Positions 1-48,708 of a stretch of DNA of 64,000 nt are shown here, one piece after another. Numbering within the stretch: the first letter of the stretch is position 1; each line of letters begins with the position of its first letter. Under the pieces are notes generated by a model. It did no database searches. It saw nothing but the letters and a program-made list of their open reading frames with translations, and was not told the origin of the DNA. The stretch comes from Escherichia phage JH2. Both the position numbers and the translations under genes were made by a program. The stretch lies in the sequence record KF055347; one strand, 5' to 3'.

Positions 1-27
1 CAATTTACAGACTTTTATCAGGCTTGT

Positions 28-261
28 CTAGTCTTTTTCAATGATAATTTCATATTGACCATCAACGCTGTCAAAATAAACGCCGTCGCTGTCTTCTGTC
101 TTAAAATAACACTGAATGTCATCACTGGCGGGGTAGTCTTGTCTTGCTATCTGACAGACCTGAACGGCATTTTCTTTACTTCCTGTAAACTCCTCAAGCC
201 CTTTAAAATCACATGAATGGCCATTACAAATAGAAAGGATAAGATAAACGGTTGTAAGCAT
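28..261 (-). CDS. hypothetical early protein, N-terminal hydrophobic segment
   Basis: 77-aa ORF; N-terminus MLTTVYLILSICNGHSC is hydrophobic; same strand as the small-gene array. Confidence 0.4.
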   Translation of the reverse strand: MLTTVYLILSICNGHSCDFKGLEEFTGSKENAVQVCQIARQDYPASDDIQCYFKTEDSDGVYFDSVDGQYEIIIEKD

Positions 262-324
262 GATTGAAGCCCTCTAAATGGCCCTGTGTGGGCCTTAAGT
301 TAAAAGTTGGTGTCTTTGTACTGC

Positions 325-888
325 TTATCCTAAAAAGTCCTTTAAATTGCGTTCTGTGAGGTTTTCCGTGATTTTATCCAGTAGGTCACAAAACACGGAA
401 CTATCACCGCTATTCTGTACAATTTTTGCAATACTCAACAAATCATCGTCAACATATCCCAAATTGCGGTTTTTCGTATCAGGTACAAAGAAAGGTGCAT
501 ACATCGCACTAAATTTCGTTGAGTGGATACTAACAATCCAATTTTTATCAAAGTATCCGGTAAAGCTGGCAATTTCGCTCATGTTGTCACAAGAATAATC
601 GTCCTCTAGTTCTTCCTCTGGGATATCCATTTCAATAACAATTACGTCCTGCGTTTCCATTTGGAAAGCTGCTGTGATAAGCCCCGACTCTAAGGCGCTT
701 TGAATGCAGCGTTCACGGATATAAGAGACTTCCTCATCTTCCAGACATTCCGTTTTGATAACCTTATTCATTGGATAAACATAGAAACAATCGTCCATGT
801 AGGAACAGTTCCAGATACCTTCAGGCTTATCGCCACCATTCAGCAGGTTTACAAAGTTTTTGAGTGTAGTTCCGTGATAGCATTTCAT
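325..888 (-). CDS. hypothetical early protein
   Basis: 187-aa ORF; start preceded on the coding strand by conserved CCTTAAACTAGGAGATTCAAAA leader. Confidence 0.5.
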   Translation of the reverse strand: MKCYHGTTLKNFVNLLNGGDKPEGIWNCSYMDDCFYVYPMNKVIKTECLEDEEVSYIRERCIQSALESGLITAAFQMETQDVIVIEMDIPEEELEDDYSCDNMSEIASFTGYFDKNWIVSIHSTKFSAMYAPFFVPDTKNRNLGYVDDDLLSIAKIVQNSGDSSVFCDLLDKITENLTERNLKDFLG

Positions 889-980
889 TTTTGAATCTCC
901 TAGTTTAAGGACTTGATTTAGTGGTAAAGCTCTTTATCTGGGGCTTACTTTATCGAACTATAAGCCCCTTGTAAAGTACT
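889..980 (-). promoter_or_regulatory. early intergenic cassette type A: GGGGCTTA..TAAGCCCC hairpin plus conserved AGGAGA leader
   Basis: near-identical ~90-bp sequence recurs between consecutive small genes; stem GGGGCTTA (940-947) pairs with TAAGCCCC (961-968). Confidence 0.55.
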
Positions 981-1184
981 TTATCGGTTATTTTTGATAA
1001 CTTTTAAAACTGCGCGGTATCCTAAGCAATAAGAATCACCGAAGAGCGACCGACCCATGAATGAATCCTCTTTGATATCCTTTGCAGTGACAGTCTTTTC
1101 TACGCCGTGAAAAAGAACTATATCGCCAACTTTGATATCTTTGATATGAGTAGTTTCAATGTTTAAACCGTTGATAATAGCCAT
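981..1184 (-). CDS. hypothetical early protein
   Basis: 67-aa ORF flanked by cassettes. Confidence 0.4.
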   Translation of the reverse strand: MAIINGLNIETTHIKDIKVGDIVLFHGVEKTVTAKDIKEDSFMGRSLFGDSYCLGYRAVLKVIKNNR

Positions 1185-1284
1185 TCTTGAATCTCCTAGT
1201 TTAAGGACTTTACTTAGTGGGGAGGTTATCCCTCCCGTTGATTAGTAATTTACTTGTTTTAAAAATCAATGTCAACAAAATTTT
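1185..1284 (-). promoter_or_regulatory. early intergenic cassette type B: GGGAGG..CCTCCC hairpin plus conserved leader
   Basis: GGGAGG (1220-1225) pairs with CCTCCC (1231-1236); same unit recurs at 2048-2134. Confidence 0.5.
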
Positions 1285-1689
1285 TTAGAGTTCTGCATAA
1301 ATTGCATCGCAGATACCACGAAAATCATGATTTGTCAAATTACGTTGTAACCAAGTGGCGAAAAAGTCAGCGATTGCAAAGTTAGCGTCATACTCGACAG
1401 ATAGCCATACTTTAACAGCAAATCTAAGCATTTTCAAATCCAGCTCTCTATTCATTACCTTAGATTTGCCTAACATGTCGGTCATTTCATATTGCGCACC
1501 GTCTAGCGTGATACCGGCTGCAACGTCAGCCAATGAGTTTTTTACGCTTTCAACGTCTAAGATAACACTTTGAATCTTCCCGATAATGTTTTGCAGTGTT
1601 TCGTCTGGCGCTGATGACGTGATAACATTAATCCGGTTGACGGTCAAACGTGCTTTTAAGATTAATAATTCGCGGTTATTAATAGCCAT
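1285..1689 (-). CDS. hypothetical early protein
   Basis: 134-aa ORF flanked by cassettes. Confidence 0.5.
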   Translation of the reverse strand: MAINNRELLILKARLTVNRINVITSSAPDETLQNIIGKIQSVILDVESVKNSLADVAAGITLDGAQYEMTDMLGKSKVMNRELDLKMLRFAVKVWLSVEYDANFAIADFFATWLQRNLTNHDFRGICDAIYAEL

Positions 1690-1774
1690 TTTTGAATCTC
1701 CAATTTAGGATTTAGTGGTAAAGCTCTTTATCTGGGGCTTACTTTATCGAACTATAAGCCCCTTGTAAAGTACT
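1690..1774 (-). promoter_or_regulatory. early intergenic cassette type A
   Basis: repeat of ctctttatctggggcttactttatcgaactataagccccttgtaaagtactttat. Confidence 0.55.
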
Positions 1775-2047
1775 TTATACTAAATGCAGCTTTTTACCTT
1801 TTACTATGATGTAACTTGATGCGCTATTGCTGCAAACATCCTGATAAATTCTGCGCAAACGGCCTTCATAGTATACTTTCCAACTAGTTGGAATCTTTTT
1901 ACCATATCCCGTAGCAGTTTTTTGGAATCCAGCAAGTTGCCAATCCAAAATATGTTGTTCAGCTTGTAAATCCTCGAAGTGCATTACACCGTTCACATAG
2001 TGGCGCAAAGTTACATTTAGAGTACGACCGTTGTTAGTAGTATACAT
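1775..2047 (-). CDS. hypothetical early protein
   Basis: 90-aa ORF flanked by cassettes. Confidence 0.45.
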   Translation of the reverse strand: MYTTNNGRTLNVTLRHYVNGVMHFEDLQAEQHILDWQLAGFQKTATGYGKKIPTSWKVYYEGRLRRIYQDVCSNSASSYIIVKGKKLHLV

Positions 2048-2134
2048 TTTCTAATCTCCTAGTTTAAGGACTTTACTTAGTGGGGAGGTCATCCCTCCCG
2101 TTGATTAGTAATTTACTTGTTTTAAAAACCAAAA
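2048..2134 (-). promoter_or_regulatory. early intergenic cassette type B
   Basis: second copy of the GGGAGG..CCTCCC hairpin unit. Confidence 0.5.
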
Positions 2135-2467
2135 TCAAGAGAAATTTTTTCGTTTGCTCAATTCTTGAACAATTACAGCGTAGTAGTCTTTTAAGTCACT
2201 GATATTTAAAGCATTTATCAGTGAATTATAATCATCGACTAACTGAAAATCATCTTTGAAGATATCACTTATCTGATAGGTTTTCGCTTTGAATCTGAAG
2301 CTCATTTCTAGCCGCTTTATTTGCTCATCACTTAAACGCTCCAGAAAGCTCATTACAAGGCTATTATTGACCTGTTGCGTGATTGCCTTACTTGCCAGAT
2401 TGTAGGCGCTGTAAGCCTTATAAAGTGCTATAATGGCGATGATTGCAGTGATGCCCATCATTAGCAT
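2135..2467 (-). CDS. hypothetical membrane-associated early protein
   Basis: 110-aa ORF; N-terminus MLMMGITAIIAIIALY is hydrophobic. Confidence 0.5.
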   Translation of the reverse strand: MLMMGITAIIAIIALYKAYSAYNLASKAITQQVNNSLVMSFLERLSDEQIKRLEMSFRFKAKTYQISDIFKDDFQLVDDYNSLINALNISDLKDYYAVIVQELSKRKNFS

Positions 2468-2757
2468 GGTGTTACCTCTCTGCGTGATACTTTACCATTT
2501 ACAGTTATCTCATAAGCTTCTAATAAATCACTTTCAGATTTAACAGGACTTTTAAAAGTATCATCATAAACATTAATTTGCAATACAGGCTTTTTATACT
2601 CCCTGCAACTATTCCATAAGCAAATTACTACGCGACGGCCTTTTATTTTGCCGTGTAACCATTCCATAACATCATGACTATTTCTTGATGTCTCGATAAA
2701 ATCAATTTTATTGAGTAATTTGCTTAGATTTTCACGCACTTGATTTGATAATTTCAT
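2461..2757 (-). CDS. hypothetical early protein
   Basis: 98-aa ORF; 7-nt overlap with the downstream gene. Confidence 0.45.
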   Translation of the reverse strand: MKLSNQVRENLSKLLNKIDFIETSRNSHDVMEWLHGKIKGRRVVICLWNSCREYKKPVLQINVYDDTFKSPVKSESDLLEAYEITVNGKVSRREVTPC

Positions 2758-2849
2758 TTTTGAATCTCCTAGTTTAAGGGCTTTATTTGATAAATCTCTT
2801 TATCTGGGGCTATCCTACCAGCTTGTTAGCCCCGTGTAAAGAAATCTAT
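2758..2849 (-). promoter_or_regulatory. early intergenic cassette, type A variant
   Basis: same leader; hairpin variant ggggctatcctaccagcttgttagcccc. Confidence 0.45.
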
Positions 2850-3362
2850 TTAGTTCTTAAAGATATTCATCACTGAATCTTTCAACGATTCCAAACGTTC
2901 TAATACTTCAGATTCTGCGTCTGCGTTGTTCACCTCTTCTTTTAGTCTATCCTCTAAATCATCGCCGTCACGATAGCGCCAATCGAAAGCGTAACCAAGA
3001 TAAAAACTTTCTAAAACCGTGCTACCGTTTGCATCCACAACTTTCGCGGCAAGGCTATACTCTGAAGCCTCTAAATCTCTTTCTAGTTCTTTCTGTAAGC
3101 TTGTGTAAGCCTCTTTCGATGGATTCTCACGGCCTTGTTTTGCATAGTCACTTGAAAGCTGCTTAAGGCTGTAATGCAAAGGGATTGCATATTTAAACTC
3201 ATTACGCTGACAGTTGGTGTTTTTAATAGTTACACCGCCTTGATGGTCATCTGTAAACTCCCAATTATCCATATTATGGCTTGCTTCGTAGCAATTAACA
3301 GCCTCATAAATGATGGAAAATTTTTCTTTTACAACTTCAAAGGTAGCGTCTACAGTTTTCAT
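2850..3362 (-). CDS. hypothetical early protein
   Basis: 170-aa ORF. Confidence 0.5.
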   Translation of the reverse strand: MKTVDATFEVVKEKFSIIYEAVNCYEASHNMDNWEFTDDHQGGVTIKNTNCQRNEFKYAIPLHYSLKQLSSDYAKQGRENPSKEAYTSLQKELERDLEASEYSLAAKVVDANGSTVLESFYLGYAFDWRYRDGDDLEDRLKEEVNNADAESEVLERLESLKDSVMNIFKN

Positions 3363-3457
3363 TTTTGAATCTCCTAGTTTAAGGACTTGATTTAGTGGTA
3401 AAGCTCTTTATCTGGGGCTTAAGATATCAACTTTTAAGCCCCTTGTAAAGTACTTTA
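3363..3457 (-). promoter_or_regulatory. early intergenic cassette type A, GGGGCTTAA..TTAAGCCCC variant
   Basis: ggggcttaagatatcaacttttaagcccc followed by ttgtaaagtactttat. Confidence 0.55.
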
Positions 3458-3730
3458 TCAGATTAAATTGCCAGTTAATGATAAGTGCATTTTATAGCCT
3501 TTTTTGGTAAAAACGTTCACTTTACCGAGTGATTTTACACCTTTAAAAATGTTGTTTGAACTGCGTTTTAAGGTTAGTTGCTTATCAGCTTTCACGCCCC
3601 ACCTTACAGCAGTTTGTTTTCCGTTGTCAACCACTTTTCCGCATAACTTTTTAGCCATAACGCGAGCGTCATCACGAGTCTTTGCAGTAATTACAACGTT
3701 TTTGATAATAGCCATTTTTAAGTTCTCCAA
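3458..3730 (-). CDS. hypothetical early protein
   Basis: 90-aa ORF, basic. Confidence 0.45.
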   Translation of the reverse strand: MENLKMAIIKNVVITAKTRDDARVMAKKLCGKVVDNGKQTAVRWGVKADKQLTLKRSSNNIFKGVKSLGKVNVFTKKGYKMHLSLTGNLI

Positions 3731-3804
3731 TTTAGGATTTAGTGGTAAAGCTCTTTATCTGGGGCTTACTTTATCGAACTATAAGCCCCTTGTAAAGTAC
3801 TTTA
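3731..3804 (-). promoter_or_regulatory. early intergenic cassette type A
   Basis: repeat copy. Confidence 0.55.
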
Positions 3805-4185
3805 TTAGTTAATTTTGAAAATTGTCACATAACCATCGCTCCCGATGATTTGTGATACCCCAGCTTTCTCTACTTGATAGCCCATATTTTCAAGATGGTA
3901 AACAGCATCATCGTAACCATATGCGCCACCCTGATAACGTCGCTTATCACATTTTATCAGGTTTTTACCGCGTCCAGCAAGTGCATTCAGTACGGCTTTT
4001 TCACTTGATAGTGTACCATCTATCATGGTTGCCGTGTAATGGTTGATTTTATTCCCATTAATATCATACTTAAAATTGAATGCGTGAACAATAATCAATT
4101 TACCGTTAAATTTTTCATCAAGTGACTTCTCCAGTGCGTTGCGGAAGTTGTCTTTATTGATGAATTTCGGTGCACGATAAGCCAT
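3805..4185 (-). CDS. hypothetical early protein
   Basis: 126-aa ORF. Confidence 0.5.
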   Translation of the reverse strand: MAYRAPKFINKDNFRNALEKSLDEKFNGKLIIVHAFNFKYDINGNKINHYTATMIDGTLSSEKAVLNALAGRGKNLIKCDKRRYQGGAYGYDDAVYHLENMGYQVEKAGVSQIIGSDGYVTIFKIN

Positions 4186-4273
4186 TTTAGAATCTCCTAG
4201 TTTAAGGTAAGTTAGTAAAGCTCTTTATCTGGGGCTTAAGATATCAGCTTTTAAGCCCCTTGTAAAGTACTTT
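4186..4273 (-). promoter_or_regulatory. early intergenic cassette type A
   Basis: repeat copy, ggggcttaagatatcagcttttaagcccc. Confidence 0.55.
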
Positions 4274-4480
4274 TTATATATCGTAATAGTAAACCGCTGT
4301 CTGTTTTATATGTCGCTTTGTATTCTTTGTTAGGTAGCAATTAGAGTTAATTGCCGTTTCTACATAGTTGCAATAATCAGCTTCTGATATTCTACGCCAT
4401 GCGCCGCACACTTGCATATAAAAACGTTTTGCCTTTGTGTTAACGTTGGTTGTAACCATCAATTCGCGACTGTACATCAT
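4274..4480 (-). CDS. hypothetical early protein
   Basis: 68-aa ORF; first gene downstream of the repeat-rich non-coding region. Confidence 0.4.
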   Translation of the reverse strand: MMYSRELMVTTNVNTKAKRFYMQVCGAWRRISEADYCNYVETAINSNCYLTKNTKRHIKQTAVYYYDI

Positions 4481-4987
4481 TTTGGATTCTCCAGTTTAGG
4501 AAGTGGGCTTGCTTGCCCGTCTGATGCAAATATTAGATAACCATACTCAAAGAGTCAATAGGAATTTTAAAAATATTTTTGCAAAAAACTGTAATGAAAC
4601 GGGCGCACGCGACTACCACAAAACAGAACTACAATCAAGAATTATTTTTCAATCCGCTACAAATTTTTCTGTTGACTTTTCTTTTCGGATGTGGTAGCCT
4701 TGTGAGAAATGGCGACATCCCCACCTACACCCACCTACCTGCACAATTCTAAAATGATTTTTCTTGCCCGACCTGAGTGGGTTCTGCACGTTTTGAAAAT
4801 GAAAAAGCTCTTTGGAGATTACCTGCACAGTTTGAAAATGAATTTTCTCTTTGGAGTTCAAAATTCTCTCTACAGATTTCTGTCCAGAACTCTACCTGCA
4901 CAATCCTGAAATGAAAAAACCCTCCTTACCTGAAAAATTTACCAGATAAGAAAGGCTTAGTCTATTGTGAATATTCTACAGAGTTTC
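4481..4987. repeat. ~500-bp non-coding region with four direct repeats of CTGCACA(A/G)TT(C/T)TGAAAATGA
   Basis: repeat copies begin near 4737, 4784, 4821 and 4894; only short low-complexity ORFs; a GGGC..GCCC hairpin near 4504-4517. Confidence 0.5.
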
Positions 4988-5773
4988 TTAGTTCTTTGCG
5001 TCTAAGAAGGTAACTTCCGGTGAAGAGAAAATTTCCTCGATATCCTCATCAGTTCTTGCATAGATATACGTATCTGCATCACTGCCAAATGTTACTGCAA
5101 TCTTGTGATTGCTCTTCGACAGGTGGGTAACTAGGGCGTTACTTAGAGACATCTTTTCAACCGGAGGGTTACTTTGATGTATCTTGCCTTTTCTTCGTCT
5201 GAAGAGGGTAACTGCATCATCAGTGAACACTACTACACCTGCAAAGTATTCTGGTTCACAGTAGTTCTTCCAACCTGAGCGTAACTTGTGGTACATCTCT
5301 CCTTCGTAGACATACAGATACACATCTACACTCTTCATCAACTGATTAATGATAACGGTGACGGCTTGAGGGTCTAGCCCACCGATACCTGCACCAATCA
5401 TAGGTAACCCAACTTTCTTCAACTGATTAACTTCACAGTATCTGTTAAGCTGTTTCAAAGATGACTCTAAAGCACTATATCGGGCATCTTTACCAGTCTT
5501 AAGCTGAGTGTAAAGATTAGCTATACGGCCTTGTTCTAAACGTGCTACAGAGAAATTGCCTAGTAAATTTTCACAGGGTTTGTTACGAATGCCACCTGCA
5601 AACAGGTAAACTTCTGTGTTAGTATCATACACTTTTGGATAACGCTTAGAAATAGTTGCTGCAATACCTGCACCCATGAAATTCATACAGTTGCAACCAT
5701 GACCAATGATATCAAATTTACCTTTATCAAAGGCGTCAAAGATATCACCTTTGATGATTTTTACAATACCCAT
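4988..5773 (-). CDS. putative macro-domain (ADP-ribose binding/processing) protein
   Basis: 261 aa; N-terminal DIIGHGCNCMNFMGAGIAATISKRYP resembles the macro-domain Gly-rich ADP-ribose binding loop; C-terminal half unassigned. Confidence 0.4.
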   Translation of the reverse strand: MGIVKIIKGDIFDAFDKGKFDIIGHGCNCMNFMGAGIAATISKRYPKVYDTNTEVYLFAGGIRNKPCENLLGNFSVARLEQGRIANLYTQLKTGKDARYSALESSLKQLNRYCEVNQLKKVGLPMIGAGIGGLDPQAVTVIINQLMKSVDVYLYVYEGEMYHKLRSGWKNYCEPEYFAGVVVFTDDAVTLFRRRKGKIHQSNPPVEKMSLSNALVTHLSKSNHKIAVTFGSDADTYIYARTDEDIEEIFSSPEVTFLDAKN

Positions 5774-6010
5774 TTAACATCTCTCCCAAGATTCTTTATC
5801 TTCTGAAGGTTTTACACGCTGTCCTTCATGGTCTACCCAGATACATCCACAACCTTCACAGATTACTGGCATTGCATAGCCAGCTTTAAAGTCGTCTTCA
5901 GTGATAAGACCTTTTAAGTCACCTGTATCACGTCCGAACATTTCGATAGCACAGTCTTTACAGAAGTCAGCCATGAATAATTGCCTCTTGAATGATGATG
6001 CCTTTACCAC
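5774..6010 (-). CDS. hypothetical Cys-rich protein
   Basis: 78 aa with CKDC..CEGCGC. Confidence 0.4.
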   Translation of the reverse strand: MVKASSFKRQLFMADFCKDCAIEMFGRDTGDLKGLITEDDFKAGYAMPVICEGCGCIWVDHEGQRVKPSEDKESWERC

Positions 6011-6200
6011 AACGACTTTTAAAATCTTCTAATGGTTCAGAGAAGAAGTTACGGAAATGGTTACTGCACTCACGTTTCATCACCTTCTTGTAAGTTAACG
6101 CATCTTCTCCTGCAAACGGAACGACTTCATGTCTCCCTTTGAATACTGCTGAACTTACAATCTTACGTGTCTTTTTATCTCTGGCTAGTATTACTTTCAT
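5967..6200 (-). CDS. hypothetical protein
   Basis: 77-aa ORF; 44-nt overlap with the downstream ORF. Confidence 0.35.
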   Translation of the reverse strand: MKVILARDKKTRKIVSSAVFKGRHEVVPFAGEDALTYKKVMKRECSNHFRNFFSEPLEDFKSRCGKGIIIQEAIIHG

Positions 6201-6507
6201 AGTTTACCTTCTCAGTTAGCTCATACAAATCAACATGCTCAATACTATCAATGTTGATACCAATCTTTTTGAAGCGTTCTATCACTTCGTTGTCAGTCAT
6301 CCATATCAGACACCAATGATTGTGGATGGATTCTTCAAGAAGGTCAACACAATCTTTAAAAGTCTTTGTGTCACTTCTTGTTCCGACTACTGCGATTGTC
6401 CCATACAACCACTTACCATTACCATATGATACTTGTGCTACGCCAACTTCTTTATCTTTCTCGTAGTAAACGGCTACAAAGTCTCTTCCATTAATCTGCA
6501 TAGTCAC
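6175..6507 (-). CDS. hypothetical protein
   Basis: 110-aa ORF. Confidence 0.45.
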   Translation of the reverse strand: MTMQINGRDFVAVYYEKDKEVGVAQVSYGNGKWLYGTIAVVGTRSDTKTFKDCVDLLEESIHNHWCLIWMTDNEVIERFKKIGINIDSIEHVDLYELTEKVNYESNTSQR

Positions 6508-10284: not shown

Positions 10285-10314
10285 ATTCTAAGGGGCTTCA
10301 AAGCCCCTTGTCAA
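10285..10314 (-). promoter_or_regulatory. sigma70-like promoter candidate with palindromic spacer (TTGACA-N18-TAGAAT)
   Basis: minus strand TTGACA (plus 10309-10314), spacer holds GGGGCTTTGAAGCCCC, then TAGAAT (plus 10285-10290); between rIIA and rIIB. Confidence 0.45.
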
Positions 10315-13225: not shown

Positions 13226-13246
13226 AAAAAGGCTCCCGTAGGAGCC
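13226..13246 (-). terminator. rho-independent terminator-like hairpin after the NAMPT-like gene
   Basis: GGCTCC-CGTA-GGAGCC (13231-13246) followed by a T-run on the minus strand. Confidence 0.5.
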
Positions 13247-13261
13247 TCTTATCATATACTT

Positions 13262-16520: not shown

Positions 16521-16571
16521 GTTATCTCCAAAATAAAAAGGGAACCTTTACAGTTCCCTTATAGTATCTGT

Positions 16572-48682: not shown

Positions 48683-48698
48683 GGGGCTATAAAGCCCC
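48683..48698 (-). terminator. hairpin between the two fibre genes
   Basis: GGGGCT-ATAA-AGCCCC followed by a T-run on the minus strand; preceded by TTTACA. Confidence 0.4.
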
Positions 48699-48708
48699 TG
48701 TAAAGAAA

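What the first reader, a model, noticed from the sequence alone, without database searches (positions are those of the whole stretch)
889..4520. Array of nine ~90-bp conserved intergenic cassettes separating the early small genes
Every gap between the first ten minus-strand ORFs carries one of two related units. On the coding strand each reads roughly ATAAAGTACTTTACAA, then a GC hairpin (GGGGCTTA..TAAGCCCC, or GGGAGG..CCTCCC in two copies), then AGATAAAGAGCTTTACCACTAAATCAAGTCCTTAAACTAGGAGATTCAAAA-ATG. The hairpin is not followed by a U-run, and a -35-like TTTACA sits just upstream of it. The unit may be a promoter with a palindromic element, an RNA processing site, or a translational control element. 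The same TT(T/G)ACA-GGGGC..GCCCC arrangement recurs at 10285-10314 and 48683-48698.
Basis: seen in the sequence. Interest (0 to 1): 0.6.

Follow-up and report, generated by a model that had tools for sequence, protein, structure and literature searches.

The report
Repeated promoter-hairpin cassettes between early phage genes
Each small early gene of this Felix O1-like phage is preceded by a near-identical ~90-bp unit combining a host-type promoter, an RNA hairpin and a standard ribosome site, the same kind of unit ("PeSL") known from T4-like phages, where it also lets genes be gained and lost as modules.

Summary
The window is a Felix O1-like phage (Felixounavirus). Between the small minus-strand ORFs from 4560 to 889 lie nine units: six "type A", two "type B" and the first promoter unit.

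Type A reads: stop codon, TTTACA, 17 nt, TAnnnT, AGATAAAG box, then a conserved leader with GGAG and ATG. The -10-like hexamer sits in the loop of the GGGGCTTA..TAAGCCCC hairpin. As RNA the unit folds into a two-part hairpin of about 20 bp. This fold shows compensatory changes across four genera, and G.U pairs occur on the sense strand only.

Type B and the first unit are a promoter (TTGACA-17-TAAATT) followed about 10 nt later by a small hairpin, so the hairpin lies at the 5' end of the unit's own transcript.

Relatives differ by whole "gene + unit" modules, with breakpoints inside units. All ten genes have no known function.

This anatomy matches the PeSL cassettes of T4-like phages (RB49/phi1). 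I found no paper that describes it for the Felix O1 group; the Felix O1 genome paper only listed the repeats.

Promoter activity and the hairpin's role (RNase III-type processing or stabilisation versus attenuation) are inferred from sequence, not shown.

Verdict: a new member of a known kind, of moderate interest.

The parts
4481..4560 (-). Unit 0, the first early promoter unit. -35 TTGACT at 4558-4553, 17-nt spacer, -10 TAATAT at 4535-4530. Small hairpin GGGC-AAGCAA-GCCC at 4518-4505. Leader CTTCCTAAACTGGAGAATCCAAA, then the ATG at 4480.
   Evidence: Orthologous units in relatives keep the promoter but carry other hairpins (GGGGAGGGAATGACCTTCCCC, GGGAAGCAATCCC), which is structural compensation.
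4186..4273 (-). Type A unit 1. -35 TTTACA at 4266-4261, -10 TATCTT at 4243-4238 preceded by TG, upper hairpin at 4259-4231, AGATAAAGAGCTTTAC box, leader, GGAG, ATG at 4185.
   Evidence: 82.6 bits.
3716..3804 (-). Type A unit 2. -35 at 3796-3791, -10 TAAAGT at 3773-3768, upper hairpin at 3789-3761. Short leader variant (CCTAAATTGGAGA). ATG at 3715.
   Evidence: 85.7 bits.
3363..3457 (-). Type A unit 3. -35 at 3449-3444, -10 TATCTT at 3426-3421 preceded by TG, upper hairpin at 3442-3414. ATG at 3362.
   Evidence: 85.8 bits.
2758..2849 (-). Type A unit 4 (variant). -35 TTTACA at 2840-2835, -10 TAGGAT at 2817-2812 preceded by TG, upper hairpin GGGGCTA..TAGCCCC at 2833-2806. The lower stem has 13 contiguous pairs (ATAGATTTCTTTA / TAAAGAGATTTAT), compensatory relative to the main type.
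   Evidence: 70.6 bits.
2048..2138 (-). Type B unit 1. -35 TTGATT at 2138-2133 (overlaps the stop codon of the upstream ORF), -10 TAAATT at 2115-2110, hairpin GGGAGGG-ATGA-CCTCCCC at 2099-2082, leader ACTAAGTAAAGTCCTTAAACTAGGAGATTAGAAA, ATG at 2047.
   Evidence: (family D5).
1690..1774 (-). Type A unit 5. -35 at 1769-1764, -10 TAAAGT at 1746-1741, upper hairpin at 1762-1734. ATG at 1689.
   Evidence: 84.2 bits.
1185..1284 (-). Type B unit 2. -35 TTGACA at 1275-1270, -10 TAAATT at 1252-1247, hairpin GGGAGGG-ATAA-CCTCCCC at 1236-1219, shared leader, ATG at 1184.
   Evidence: (10 of 12 matches). The orthologous site is annotated as a promoter in the AYO145A record.
889..983 (-). Type A unit 6. 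Full two-part hairpin at 983-925, -35 at 975-970, -10 TAAAGT at 952-947, upper stem at 968-940, box at 939-924, Shine-Dalgarno AGGAG at 901-897, ATG at 888.
   Evidence: MFE -26 kcal/mol, z -3.7; 83.3 bits.
325..4480 (-). The ten small ORFs served by the units (68, 126, 85, 170, 98, 110, 90, 134, 67 and 187 aa), all of unknown function.
   Evidence: No Pfam match. All PHROGs matches are 'unknown function' families.
4917..4958 (-). Canonical intrinsic terminator (17-bp stem followed by a T-run) that closes the upstream macro-domain/'phosphatase' gene and bounds the array on its upstream side. It equals Felix O1 terminator t13.
   Evidence: and Table 2 of the Felix O1 genome paper.
10285..10314 (-). 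Solitary related unit. TAAAGTGT, then TTGACA at 10314-10309, an 18-nt spacer that consists of the hairpin AGGGGCTTTGAAGCCCCT, then -10 TAGAAT at 10290-10285. The layout resembles RB49 PeSLs.
   Evidence: score 11 of 12; E=0.0025; E=2.
2..30 (-). Start of the next type-B unit (TAGACA-17-TAAATT), cut by the window edge.
   Evidence: The complete unit is seen in phage mio downstream of the orthologous gene.

Best explanation
The units are PeSL-type composite expression cassettes (early promoter + stem-loop + ribosome site), one per small early gene. Four functions are proposed.

1. Promoter (DNA level). Each unit is a host sigma-70 promoter.
- Type A is TTTACA, 17 bp, TAnnnT (often preceded by TG). 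The likely start is at the A of the invariant CCCC-AGATAAAG, 7-8 nt after the -10.
- Type B and unit 0 are TTGACA-like, 17 bp, TAAATT/TAATAT. The likely start is in the conserved ATCAAC.

2. Leader. The transcript carries a standard leader of about 50 nt ending in GGAG, 8 nt, ATG.

3. Hairpin (RNA level).
- Type A: only RNA arriving from an upstream promoter contains both arms. It folds into a two-part hairpin of about 20 bp: an A/U-rich lower stem of 11 bp, a 3x3 internal loop, a G/C upper stem of 9 bp, and an 11-14-nt loop. I propose that this marks the 3' boundary of the upstream cistron. Most likely it acts as an RNase III-type processing site and/or a barrier to 3' exonucleases. Partial attenuation of read-through is less likely.
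- Type B: the small hairpin lies 3-5 nt from the 5' end of the unit's own mRNA. That is the position expected of a 5' stabiliser. It cannot be an efficient terminator without killing its own transcript.

4. Recombination. The ~90-bp units are near-identical and in the same orientation. They therefore serve as homology for recombination, so 'gene + unit' modules are inserted, deleted and converted among relatives.

Shown here: the sequence anatomy, its conservation pattern, RNA-level covariation, and the module-wise indels. Inferred: promoter activity, the start sites, the fate of the hairpin RNA, and the recombination mechanism.
For: Promoter:
- All six type-A units in the window carry TTTACA-17-(TAAAGT|TATCTT|TAGGAT).
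- Across about 60 distinct type-A units from 15 genomes in four genera, TTTACA is exact in all but one.
- The spacer is 17 nt, and 18 nt in three units.
- Positions 1, 2 and 6 of the -10 hexamer are T, A, T in all but one unit, while positions 3-5 vary freely across 10 hexamer types.
- TG precedes the hexamer in 24 units.
- TTTACW-N17-TAYWAT is the published consensus for T4/PST PeSL promoters (PMC4122927).
- All 45 distinct type-B units keep a -35-like hexamer (TTGACA, TTGCAA, TAGACA, TTGACG or TTGATT) 17 nt from the -10. This holds even when that -35 lies inside the upstream coding sequence.

RNA hairpin:
- The minimum-energy fold of each type-A unit is the same two-part hairpin, at -22 to -26 kcal/mol with z -2.7 to -4.2.
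- 89% of cells are paired. The covariation score is 0.131, against 0.066 in shuffles (0 of 500 reach it) and at most 0.044 when partners are slid.
- Compensatory changes: GC<->UA (51/8), UA<->AU (47/11), six pair types at one position, and GC<->UA (50/7) in the lower stem.
- There are 107 G.U pairs but only 6 A.C pairs inside the stems, so pairing is selected on the sense strand.
- The model scores 70-86 bits on the sense strand and 27-38 bits on the antisense strand.

Hairpin is not a classical terminator:
- There is no T-run, and the loops are 11-14 nt. Every terminator-like site elsewhere in the window that ends in a T-run has a shorter loop of 4-10 nt, mostly 4-5.
- The type-B hairpin lies downstream of its own promoter.

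Processing-site geometry:
- The T7 intercistronic regions R0.3, R0.5 and R1.3 fold into the same lower stem / internal loop / GC upper stem shape, at -24 to -26 kcal/mol.

Modules:
- XTG1 has an extra gene flanked by two A units.
- Felix O1 lacks two genes, with a single unit left whose 5' flank matches one window unit and whose 3' flank matches another.
- ESh21 lacks one gene. phiEa21-4 has a different gene order.
- Loop classes differ at orthologous gaps in close relatives.

Context:
- The genes have no known function.
- Felix O1 ORFs 16, 20, 21 and 22 peak at 5 min after infection (PMC3185647).

PeSL match:
- The published description matches: an AT-rich region with the stop codon, a sigma-70 promoter, a G/C stem-loop most often between the -35 and -10 or over the -10, a Shine-Dalgarno sequence and ATG, about 100 bp in all, located in variable regions next to orphan genes (PMC2839356).
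- RB49 units read directly show the same layout, e.g. TAAAAAGTTGTTGACAGGGGATC..GATCCCCTATACT...GGAGAATCAAAAATG.
Against: - No transcript mapping exists for any member of this phage group in the searchable literature, so promoter use and RNA ends are unverified.
- The type-A -10 hexamers match the consensus at only 4 of 6 positions. The generic promoter scan is not significantly enriched in the region (27 sites found, 18.7 +/- 4.3 expected).
- The invariance of TTTACA and of the AGA start region could partly reflect constraints of the RNA hairpin rather than of the promoter.
- For RB49, the authors reported that a PeSL stem-loop lacking a U-run reduced downstream lacZ as strongly as rrnB T1. 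Attenuation may therefore be the main hairpin function, contrary to my preference for processing.
- The apical loop (11-14 nt) is much larger than in T7 RNase III sites (3-5 nt).
- nhmmer and the covariance model find no sequence homology with RB49 PeSLs, so the relation to PeSLs is one of architecture.
- The sequences used for covariation are related to one another and partly homogenised by conversion, so the counts overstate the number of independent events.
Confidence: 0.72

Rival explanations
1. The hairpins are mainly transcription attenuators or terminators, as proposed for RB49 PeSLs. Each unit stops most RNA polymerases coming from upstream and restarts transcription at its own promoter, so every small gene is a separate transcription unit.
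For: An RB49 PeSL stem-loop placed between a promoter and lacZ reduced expression like rrnB T1 (PMC2839356). RB49 stem-loops read here also lack a U-run. In type A, the promoter is placed so that its own transcript lacks the 5' arm. This fits an element that would be harmful inside its own 5' UTR.
Against: There is no U-run and the loops are 11-14 nt, unlike the terminator-like sites with T-runs elsewhere in this genome. TransTerm found no terminator between t13 and t23 in Felix O1. Type-B and unit-0 hairpins lie downstream of their own start sites, so efficient termination there would abolish expression of the gene they serve. The covarying A/U-rich lower stem of 11 bp is not needed for an intrinsic terminator.
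Confidence: 0.25
2. The region is one long polycistronic early RNA made from unit 0 only, as in the T7 early region. The units are purely RNase III (or other) processing sites, and the promoter-like hexamers are incidental.
For: The two-part ~20-bp hairpin geometry equals that of T7 R0.3, R0.5 and R1.3. RNA-level covariation and the G.U asymmetry support it. No canonical terminator lies within the array.
Against: T, A and T at hexamer positions 1, 2 and 6 are conserved inside an otherwise freely varying apical loop. They always lie 17-18 nt from an invariant TTTACA, with frequent TG. This is the signature of a sigma-70 promoter and is not required for a hairpin loop. Type-B units are near-consensus promoters (10 of 12 matches). 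In phiEa21-4, 'type C' units keep -35-17-GATTAT but lack the lower stem and the box.
Confidence: 0.1
3. The palindrome is a DNA operator for a dimeric phage or host repressor that shuts off the early promoters. An alternative DNA-level version is a cruciform that makes the promoter sensitive to supercoiling.
For: The inverted repeat flanks the -10, where a bound protein would block RNA polymerase. All early units share it, which would allow coordinated shut-off.
Against: Pairs vary by compensation within single genomes (CTTA/TAAG, CTA/TAG, TTATC/GATAG, GGTG/CACC), and the spacing between arms varies. There are 107 G.U against 6 A.C, so the symmetry holds on one strand only, which neither a duplex-DNA operator nor a cruciform predicts. 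The lower-stem halves in the variant unit are complementary to each other but are not each palindromic.
Confidence: 0.04
4. The units are selfish or neutral repeated palindromic elements (REP- or MITE-like) that spread into intergenic gaps without a regulatory role.
For: There are many near-identical copies per genome: about 1959 places in 288 phage records. There is evidence of conversion between copies.
Against: Every copy has the same orientation and spans exactly from the stop codon to the ATG. Each supplies the only Shine-Dalgarno sequence of the downstream gene, and none interrupts a gene. The conservation pattern is function-like: promoter positions and paired positions are kept while the loop interior varies.
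Confidence: 0.03

Closest known systems
PeSL (promoter-early stem-loop) cassettes of T4-like phages RB49/phi1, PST/T4 and nt-1/KVP40 (Arbiol et al. 2010, PMC2839356; Comeau et al. 2014, PMC4122927)
   Same: - Unit of about 90-100 bp running from the stop codon to the ATG.
- A/T-rich start (TAAAAAGT..), then a sigma-70-type early promoter with a 17-bp spacer.
- A G-run/C-run stem-loop placed in the spacer or over the -10.
- No U-run after the stem-loop.
- A standard ribosome site (GGAGAATCAAAAATG in RB49; GGAGATTCAAAAATG or GGAGAATCTAAAATG here).
- Many copies in a variable early region in front of orphan genes.
- Indels and replacements between close relatives with breakpoints in the units.
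Sources.
   Different: - The host lineage is different: Ounavirinae, a Felix O1-like myovirus of about 87 kb, not Straboviridae.
- No sequence homology to RB49 units is detectable by nhmmer or the covariance model.
- The type-A hairpin is much longer. It has an extra covarying lower stem of 11 bp that pairs the -35 region with a conserved box at the transcript start, and an 11-14-nt loop holding the -10. RB49 stems are 7-8 bp with 3-6-nt loops.
- The unit sequence is conserved across four genera.
- Promoter or terminator activity and mini-circles were shown for RB49 and are untested here.
RNase III processing sites of the phage T7 early region (R0.3, R0.5, R1, R1.1, R1.3)
   Same: They sit between early cistrons. 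The hairpin is two-part: an A/U-rich lower stem, an internal loop and a G/C-rich upper stem of 9-10 bp. Stability is similar, at -24 to -26 kcal/mol. In T7, minor E. coli promoters (B, C) and phage promoters lie in the same intergenic spaces.
   Different: T7 sites have 3-5-nt apical loops and asymmetric internal loops, and they do not contain a promoter within the hairpin. Cleavage of the Felix O1-type hairpin by RNase III is untested. The positions of the T7 sites were taken from my own knowledge of Dunn and Studier (1983), not from the record's annotation.
5'-terminal stem-loops that stabilise E. coli mRNAs (ompA-type; from my knowledge of Emory, Bouvet and Belasco 1992)
   Same: Type-B and unit-0 hairpins begin about 10 nt after the -10, which is 3-5 nt from the predicted 5' end. 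Structure is conserved while sequence is not.
   Different: The start site is predicted, not mapped. The same hairpin is also present in read-through RNA, where it would be intercistronic.
Promoter-coupled terminators in bacteria (Fletcher et al., bioRxiv 2026, 10.64898/2026.08.19.745784)
   Same: One stretch of DNA encodes both an RNA stem-loop for the upstream unit and promoter elements for the downstream unit.
   Different: In the semi-synthetic example read, the stem-loop DNA supplies the -35 and the -10 lies just after the terminator T-tract. Here there is no T-tract and the -10 lies in the loop.

Membership tests
PeSL cassettes (T4-like phages) | Sigma-70-like early promoter (-35, ~17 bp, -10) inside the unit | tested here: met
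   TTTACA-17-TAnnnT in 6 of 6 window type-A units and in about 60 units from relatives. TTGACA-like-17-TAAATT in type B. This is sequence and conservation evidence only.
PeSL cassettes (T4-like phages) | Stable G/C-rich stem-loop within or next to the promoter (most often between -35 and -10, or over the -10) | tested here: met
   The upper stem starts 1 nt after the -35 and encloses the -10. Covariation supports the pairing. The layout was compared directly with RB49 units.
PeSL cassettes (T4-like phages) | A/T-rich 5' part with the upstream stop codon, and a Shine-Dalgarno sequence plus start codon at the 3' end; about 100 bp | tested here: met
   The gaps are 85-100 bp and begin with TAA/TGA followed by AAAGTAC. 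They end with GGAG, 8 nt, ATG.
PeSL cassettes (T4-like phages) | Many copies clustered in a variable region, in front of genes without known homologues | tested here: met
   Nine units lie in 3.7 kb, and only one related unit is found in the remaining 57 kb. The ten genes have no Pfam match and match only PHROGs families of unknown function.
PeSL cassettes (T4-like phages) | Insertions, deletions and replacements between close relatives with breakpoints in the units | tested here: met
   Gene maps of 15 genomes and the junction sequences for XTG1, Felix O1 and ESh21.
PeSL cassettes (T4-like phages) | Demonstrated promoter and terminator/attenuator activity; formation of mini-circles by recombination between units | not testable with these tools
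   Needs reporter fusions, transcript mapping and inverse PCR.
PeSL cassettes (T4-like phages) | Sequence homology with RB49/phi1 units. The authors do not require this; they include non-homologous PST and nt-1 units. | tested here: not met
   nhmmer with a type-A profile and the covariance model R1 find nothing in 22 kb of the RB49 variable region. Only short motifs are shared: TAAAAAGT before the -35, and GGAGAATCAAAAATG.
RNase III processing sites (T7 early type) | Intercistronic hairpin of about two helical turns with an internal loop | tested here: met
   Type A has 11 + 9 bp around a 3x3 internal loop. T7 R0.3, R0.5 and R1.3 folded with the same tool have the same shape.
RNase III processing sites (T7 early type) | Specific cleavage by host RNase III | not testable with these tools
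   Needs an in vitro cleavage assay, or 5'/3'-end mapping in wild-type and rnc hosts.
Intrinsic (Rho-independent) terminators | G/C-rich hairpin with a short loop, followed directly by a U-run | tested here: not met
   None of the nine hairpins passes the terminator scan. The tails are AGATAAAG or ACTAAGTA, and type-A loops are 11-14 nt. The terminator-like sites with T-runs elsewhere in the window have 4-10-nt loops, mostly 4-5.
Rfam RNA families | Match to any curated covariance model | tested here: not met
   Nothing relevant at E<=1 in 1-6500.

The most novel reading that the evidence does not exclude
The type-A unit is a doubly coded element. The same ~60 nt would be a sigma-70 promoter as DNA and an RNase III-type processing or stabilising hairpin as RNA, with the -35 in the lower stem, the -10 in the apical loop and the transcription start in the internal loop. 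Cleavage of read-through RNA in the internal loop and fresh initiation at the promoter would then give mRNAs with nearly the same 5' end. Each early gene would be expressed as the same mature monocistronic message whatever its position. That would make 'gene + unit' modules freely portable across the Felix O1 subfamily.
Probability: 0.25. Interest if true: 0.6.

Novelty: new member of a known kind. Interest (0 to 1): 0.45.

Why it matters
- It assigns promoters, RNA structures and ribosome sites to about ten early genes per genome in a widely used group of therapeutic and typing phages (Felix O1, wV8 and relatives). [quoted passage not shown]
- It extends the PeSL concept of portable regulatory cassettes that drive modular gene shuffling from T4-like phages to an unrelated myovirus subfamily. 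This suggests a general solution for early, host-takeover gene sets.
- The units are compact, self-contained expression signals for E. coli and Salmonella. Their covarying hairpin is a clean test case for how one sequence can satisfy promoter and RNA-structure constraints at once.

Tried and rejected
- Rfam scan of 1-6500: no relevant family.
- Literature searches for transcript mapping or any earlier interpretation of these repeats in Felix O1-like phages. Only the Felix O1 genome paper lists them, as uninterpreted 57-bp and 39-bp direct repeats. No paper combines 'PeSLs' and 'Felix'.
- Public annotation. Type B is marked as a promoter in AYO145A. The type-B hairpins are marked as terminators on the wrong strand in XTG1. 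A 14-bp repeat_region is marked before the ribosome sites in Mordin. Type A is never annotated.
- A second promoter formed by CTTTACC plus TAAACT downstream of the hairpin. Rejected because the spacing is 15 nt and drops to 9 nt in the short-leader variants.
- Operator, cruciform, terminator-only and selfish-repeat readings. Rejected for the reasons given under the rival explanations.
- Homology to RB49 PeSLs by nhmmer and covariance model: none.
- IMG/VR pattern scan with TTTACA-N29-31-GATAAAGAG. Most hits were chance single matches. The few true Felix O1-like contigs added no new pair types.
- MAFFT placed the 1-nt length difference inside the 3' arm. I therefore repeated the pair counts on an alignment anchored at both arms.

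Full report
**What the window is.** Region 800-4600 is 98.5% identical to Escherichia phage mio. It matches 248 phage records, almost all of them Felix O1-like myoviruses of Escherichia, Salmonella, Shigella and Citrobacter. The finding lies in a block of small minus-strand ORFs. The block sits downstream of a macro-domain/'phosphatase' gene (4988-5773) and its canonical terminator (4917-4958).

**The observation.** The repeats are real and not due to chance.
- The repeat finder returns 94-103-nt families with 4-6 copies, and a 117-nt pair.
- The 18-nt leader occurs 6 times against 0.05 expected.
- Reading every gap on the coding strand gives six 'type A' units, two 'type B' units and the first promoter unit upstream of the first ORF.
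- ORFs 2461-2757 and 2135-2467 overlap and have no unit between them.
- A covariance model built from relatives finds exactly six type-A units in the 64 kb, all on the minus strand.

**Anatomy of type A.** The order is:
- stop codon (often the TAA of TAAAGTAC);
- TTTACA;
- 17 nt beginning with GGGGCTTA;
- a hexamer TAAAGT, TATCTT or TAGGAT;
- (A)AGCCCC;
- AGATAAAGAGCTTTAC;
- a leader ending in CCTTAAACTAGGAGATTCAAAA-ATG.

The promoter scan picks TTTACA-17-TAnnnT in all six units. The hexamer lies in the loop and 3' arm of the hairpin.

I collected about 60 distinct type-A units from 15 genomes of four genera: Felixounavirus, Mooglevirus, Suspvirus and Kolesnikvirus.
- TTTACA is exact in all but one.
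- The spacer is 17 nt (18 nt in three units).
- Hexamer positions 1, 2 and 6 are T, A, T in all but one, while positions 3-5 vary over ten hexamer types.
- TG precedes the hexamer in 24 units.

This is the conservation pattern of a sigma-70 -10 element, not of a hairpin loop. The -35 equals the TTTACW consensus of T4/PST early promoters. The likely start is the A after the invariant CCCC.

**The hairpin is an RNA structure.** Each type-A unit folds into one two-part hairpin. The lower stem of 11 bp pairs AAAGTACTTTA (including part of the -35) with TAAAGAGCTTT of the box. Above it come a 3x3 internal loop, an upper stem of 9 bp and an 11-14-nt loop. The energy is -22 to -26 kcal/mol and z is -2.7 to -4.2.

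On the alignment of 59 units:
- 89% of cells pair.
- The covariation score is 0.131, against 0.066 in shuffles (0 of 500 reach it) and at most 0.044 when partners are slid.

The alignment tool put a gap inside the 3' arm, so I recounted on an alignment anchored at both arms:
- GC<->UA 51/8 at upper pair 3;
- UA<->AU 47/11 at upper pair 7;
- six pair types at upper pair 9;
- GC<->UA 50/7 in the lower stem.

Inside the stems there are 107 G.U pairs but only 6 A.C pairs. Pairing is therefore selected on the sense strand, which means RNA rather than duplex DNA or a protein operator. The model scores the sense strand about 45 bits higher than the antisense strand. Only RNA that starts upstream of a unit contains both arms, so the hairpin must act on read-through transcripts.

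**Type B and unit 0.** These are near-consensus promoters (TTGACA-17-TAAATT at 1275-1247; TTGACT-17-TAATAT at 4558-4530). About 10 nt after the -10 comes a small hairpin (GGGAGGG..CCTCCCC; GGGC..GCCC), and then the shared leader.

In 45 distinct type-B units from relatives, the -35 and -10 are kept even where the -35 lies inside the upstream gene. The hairpin changes with compensation: GGGGAGGG/CCTTCCCC, GGGCAAGCAAGCCC, GGGAAGCAATCCC, GGGGCAAGATAAAGCCCC.

The hairpin sits 3-5 nt from the predicted 5' end of its own mRNA. It therefore cannot be an efficient terminator. Its position is that of a 5' stabilising stem-loop; this is an inference from my own knowledge of ompA-type elements.

**Terminator or processing site?**
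- None of the nine hairpins is followed by a U-run. The terminator-like sites with T-runs elsewhere in the window have 4-10-nt loops, mostly 4-5.
- In Felix O1, TransTerm found terminators before and after the array (t13, t23) but none inside it.
- The type-A shape equals that of the T7 early RNase III sites R0.3, R0.5 and R1.3 folded with the same tool, apart from a larger apical loop.
- I therefore favour processing and/or 3'-end protection.
- The RB49 authors reported strong reduction of downstream expression by a stem-loop that also lacks a U-run. Attenuation therefore remains a serious alternative.

**Modules.** Gene maps of 15 genomes show that differences come as 'gene + unit':
- XTG1 has an extra gene between two A units.
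- Felix O1 goes from the first gene directly to the fourth.
- ESh21 lacks the third gene.
- AYO145A and Mushroom lack the first gene.
- phiEa21-4 has a different gene order.

Junction sequences show a single unit left at each deletion. Its 5' flank is that of the upstream gene and its 3' end is that of the downstream gene. At orthologous gaps, close relatives carry different loop classes, which indicates conversion between units.

All ten window genes lack Pfam matches and fall in PHROGs families of unknown function. In Felix O1, ORFs 16, 20, 21 and 22 of this block peak at 5 min after infection.

**Comparison with what is known.** The anatomy, location and evolutionary behaviour match the PeSL cassettes described for T4-like phages.

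I read RB49 units directly. They run TAAAAAGTTG-TTGACA-GGGGATC..GATCCCC-TATACT...GGAGAATCAAAAATG, or have the -10 in the loop (GGGGGTAGTAATATACCCCC). This is the same plan and the same short motifs at both ends as the Felix O1-type units.

Profile and covariance searches nevertheless find no homology. The long covarying lower stem is specific to the Felix O1 group.

The Felix O1 genome paper listed the 57-bp and 39-bp repeats without interpretation and named none of these promoters. No searchable paper links PeSLs to this phage group.

**The remote sites.** The site at 10285-10314 is a related solitary unit with the hairpin entirely in an 18-nt spacer between TTGACA and TAGAAT. The site at 48683-48704 is a hairpin followed by TTTT without a -10, so it looks like a terminator.

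**Verdict.** The best explanation is that these are PeSL-type promoter/hairpin/ribosome-site cassettes of the Felix O1 subfamily.
- The promoter and the RNA hairpin are well supported by conservation and covariation.
- The molecular role of the hairpin and the recombination mechanism are inferred.
- This is a new member of a known kind, of moderate interest.

Noticed in passing
window 4736-4921 (read on the minus strand): Four copies of TCATTTyAnAnyGTGCAGGTA lie 39-84 bp apart inside the ~500-bp non-coding gap between the terminator at 4917-4958 and the first early promoter. Three to four copies at the same place are conserved in Felixounavirus, Suspvirus and one Mooglevirus (ESh21), and the gap length is 505-522 bp in all Felixounavirus loci examined. 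The function is unknown; binding sites or iterons are possible.
   Followed up: partly
window, every unit, e.g. 893-910 (minus strand): The conserved leader folds into a weak 3-4-bp hairpin (UCCU..6 nt..AGGA) that covers part of the Shine-Dalgarno sequence. phiEa21-4 keeps the pairing with other bases (CCUU..AAGG). The Mordin record annotates the 14 bp before each ribosome site as repeat_region.
   Followed up: partly
L010 (Felix O1) 3440-3490: The annotated start codon of Felix O1 ORF19 is the ATG inside the loop of a type-B hairpin (GGGGAGGGAATGACCTTCCCC). The true start may lie further downstream, after the usual leader.
   Followed up: no
window 262-324 (minus strand): The gap between the 187-aa and 77-aa ORFs has a different hairpin (GGCCC-ACACA-GGGCC) and no promoter-like hexamers. 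It is a unit-free junction inside the array.
   Followed up: no
L016 (RB49) versus window units: RB49 PeSLs and the Felix O1-type units share the ribosome-site string GGAGAATCAAAAATG (Felix O1 type: GGAGATTCAAAAATG or GGAGAATCTAAAATG) and the start TAAAAAGT before the -35. phiEa21-4 'type C' units share GTCGAAAC after the hairpin with RB49 (ATCGAAAC). The gene just upstream of the array resembles RB49 Tk.4, according to the phiEa21-4 annotation. This may reflect old exchange between the two phage groups or convergence.
   Followed up: partly
window 13227-13250 and 16538-16560 (minus strand): Two hairpins with T-runs (terminator-like) lie about 28 nt downstream of the start of good promoter-like sites (TTGACA-16-TATGAT; TTGAAA-17-TACTAT). 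Here a promoter is followed almost at once by a terminator-like hairpin.
   Followed up: no
L002 (XTG1) 1825-1845, 2690-2710: The public XTG1 record annotates the type-B hairpins as Rho-independent terminators on the strand opposite to the genes. This looks like an annotation artefact.
   Followed up: no
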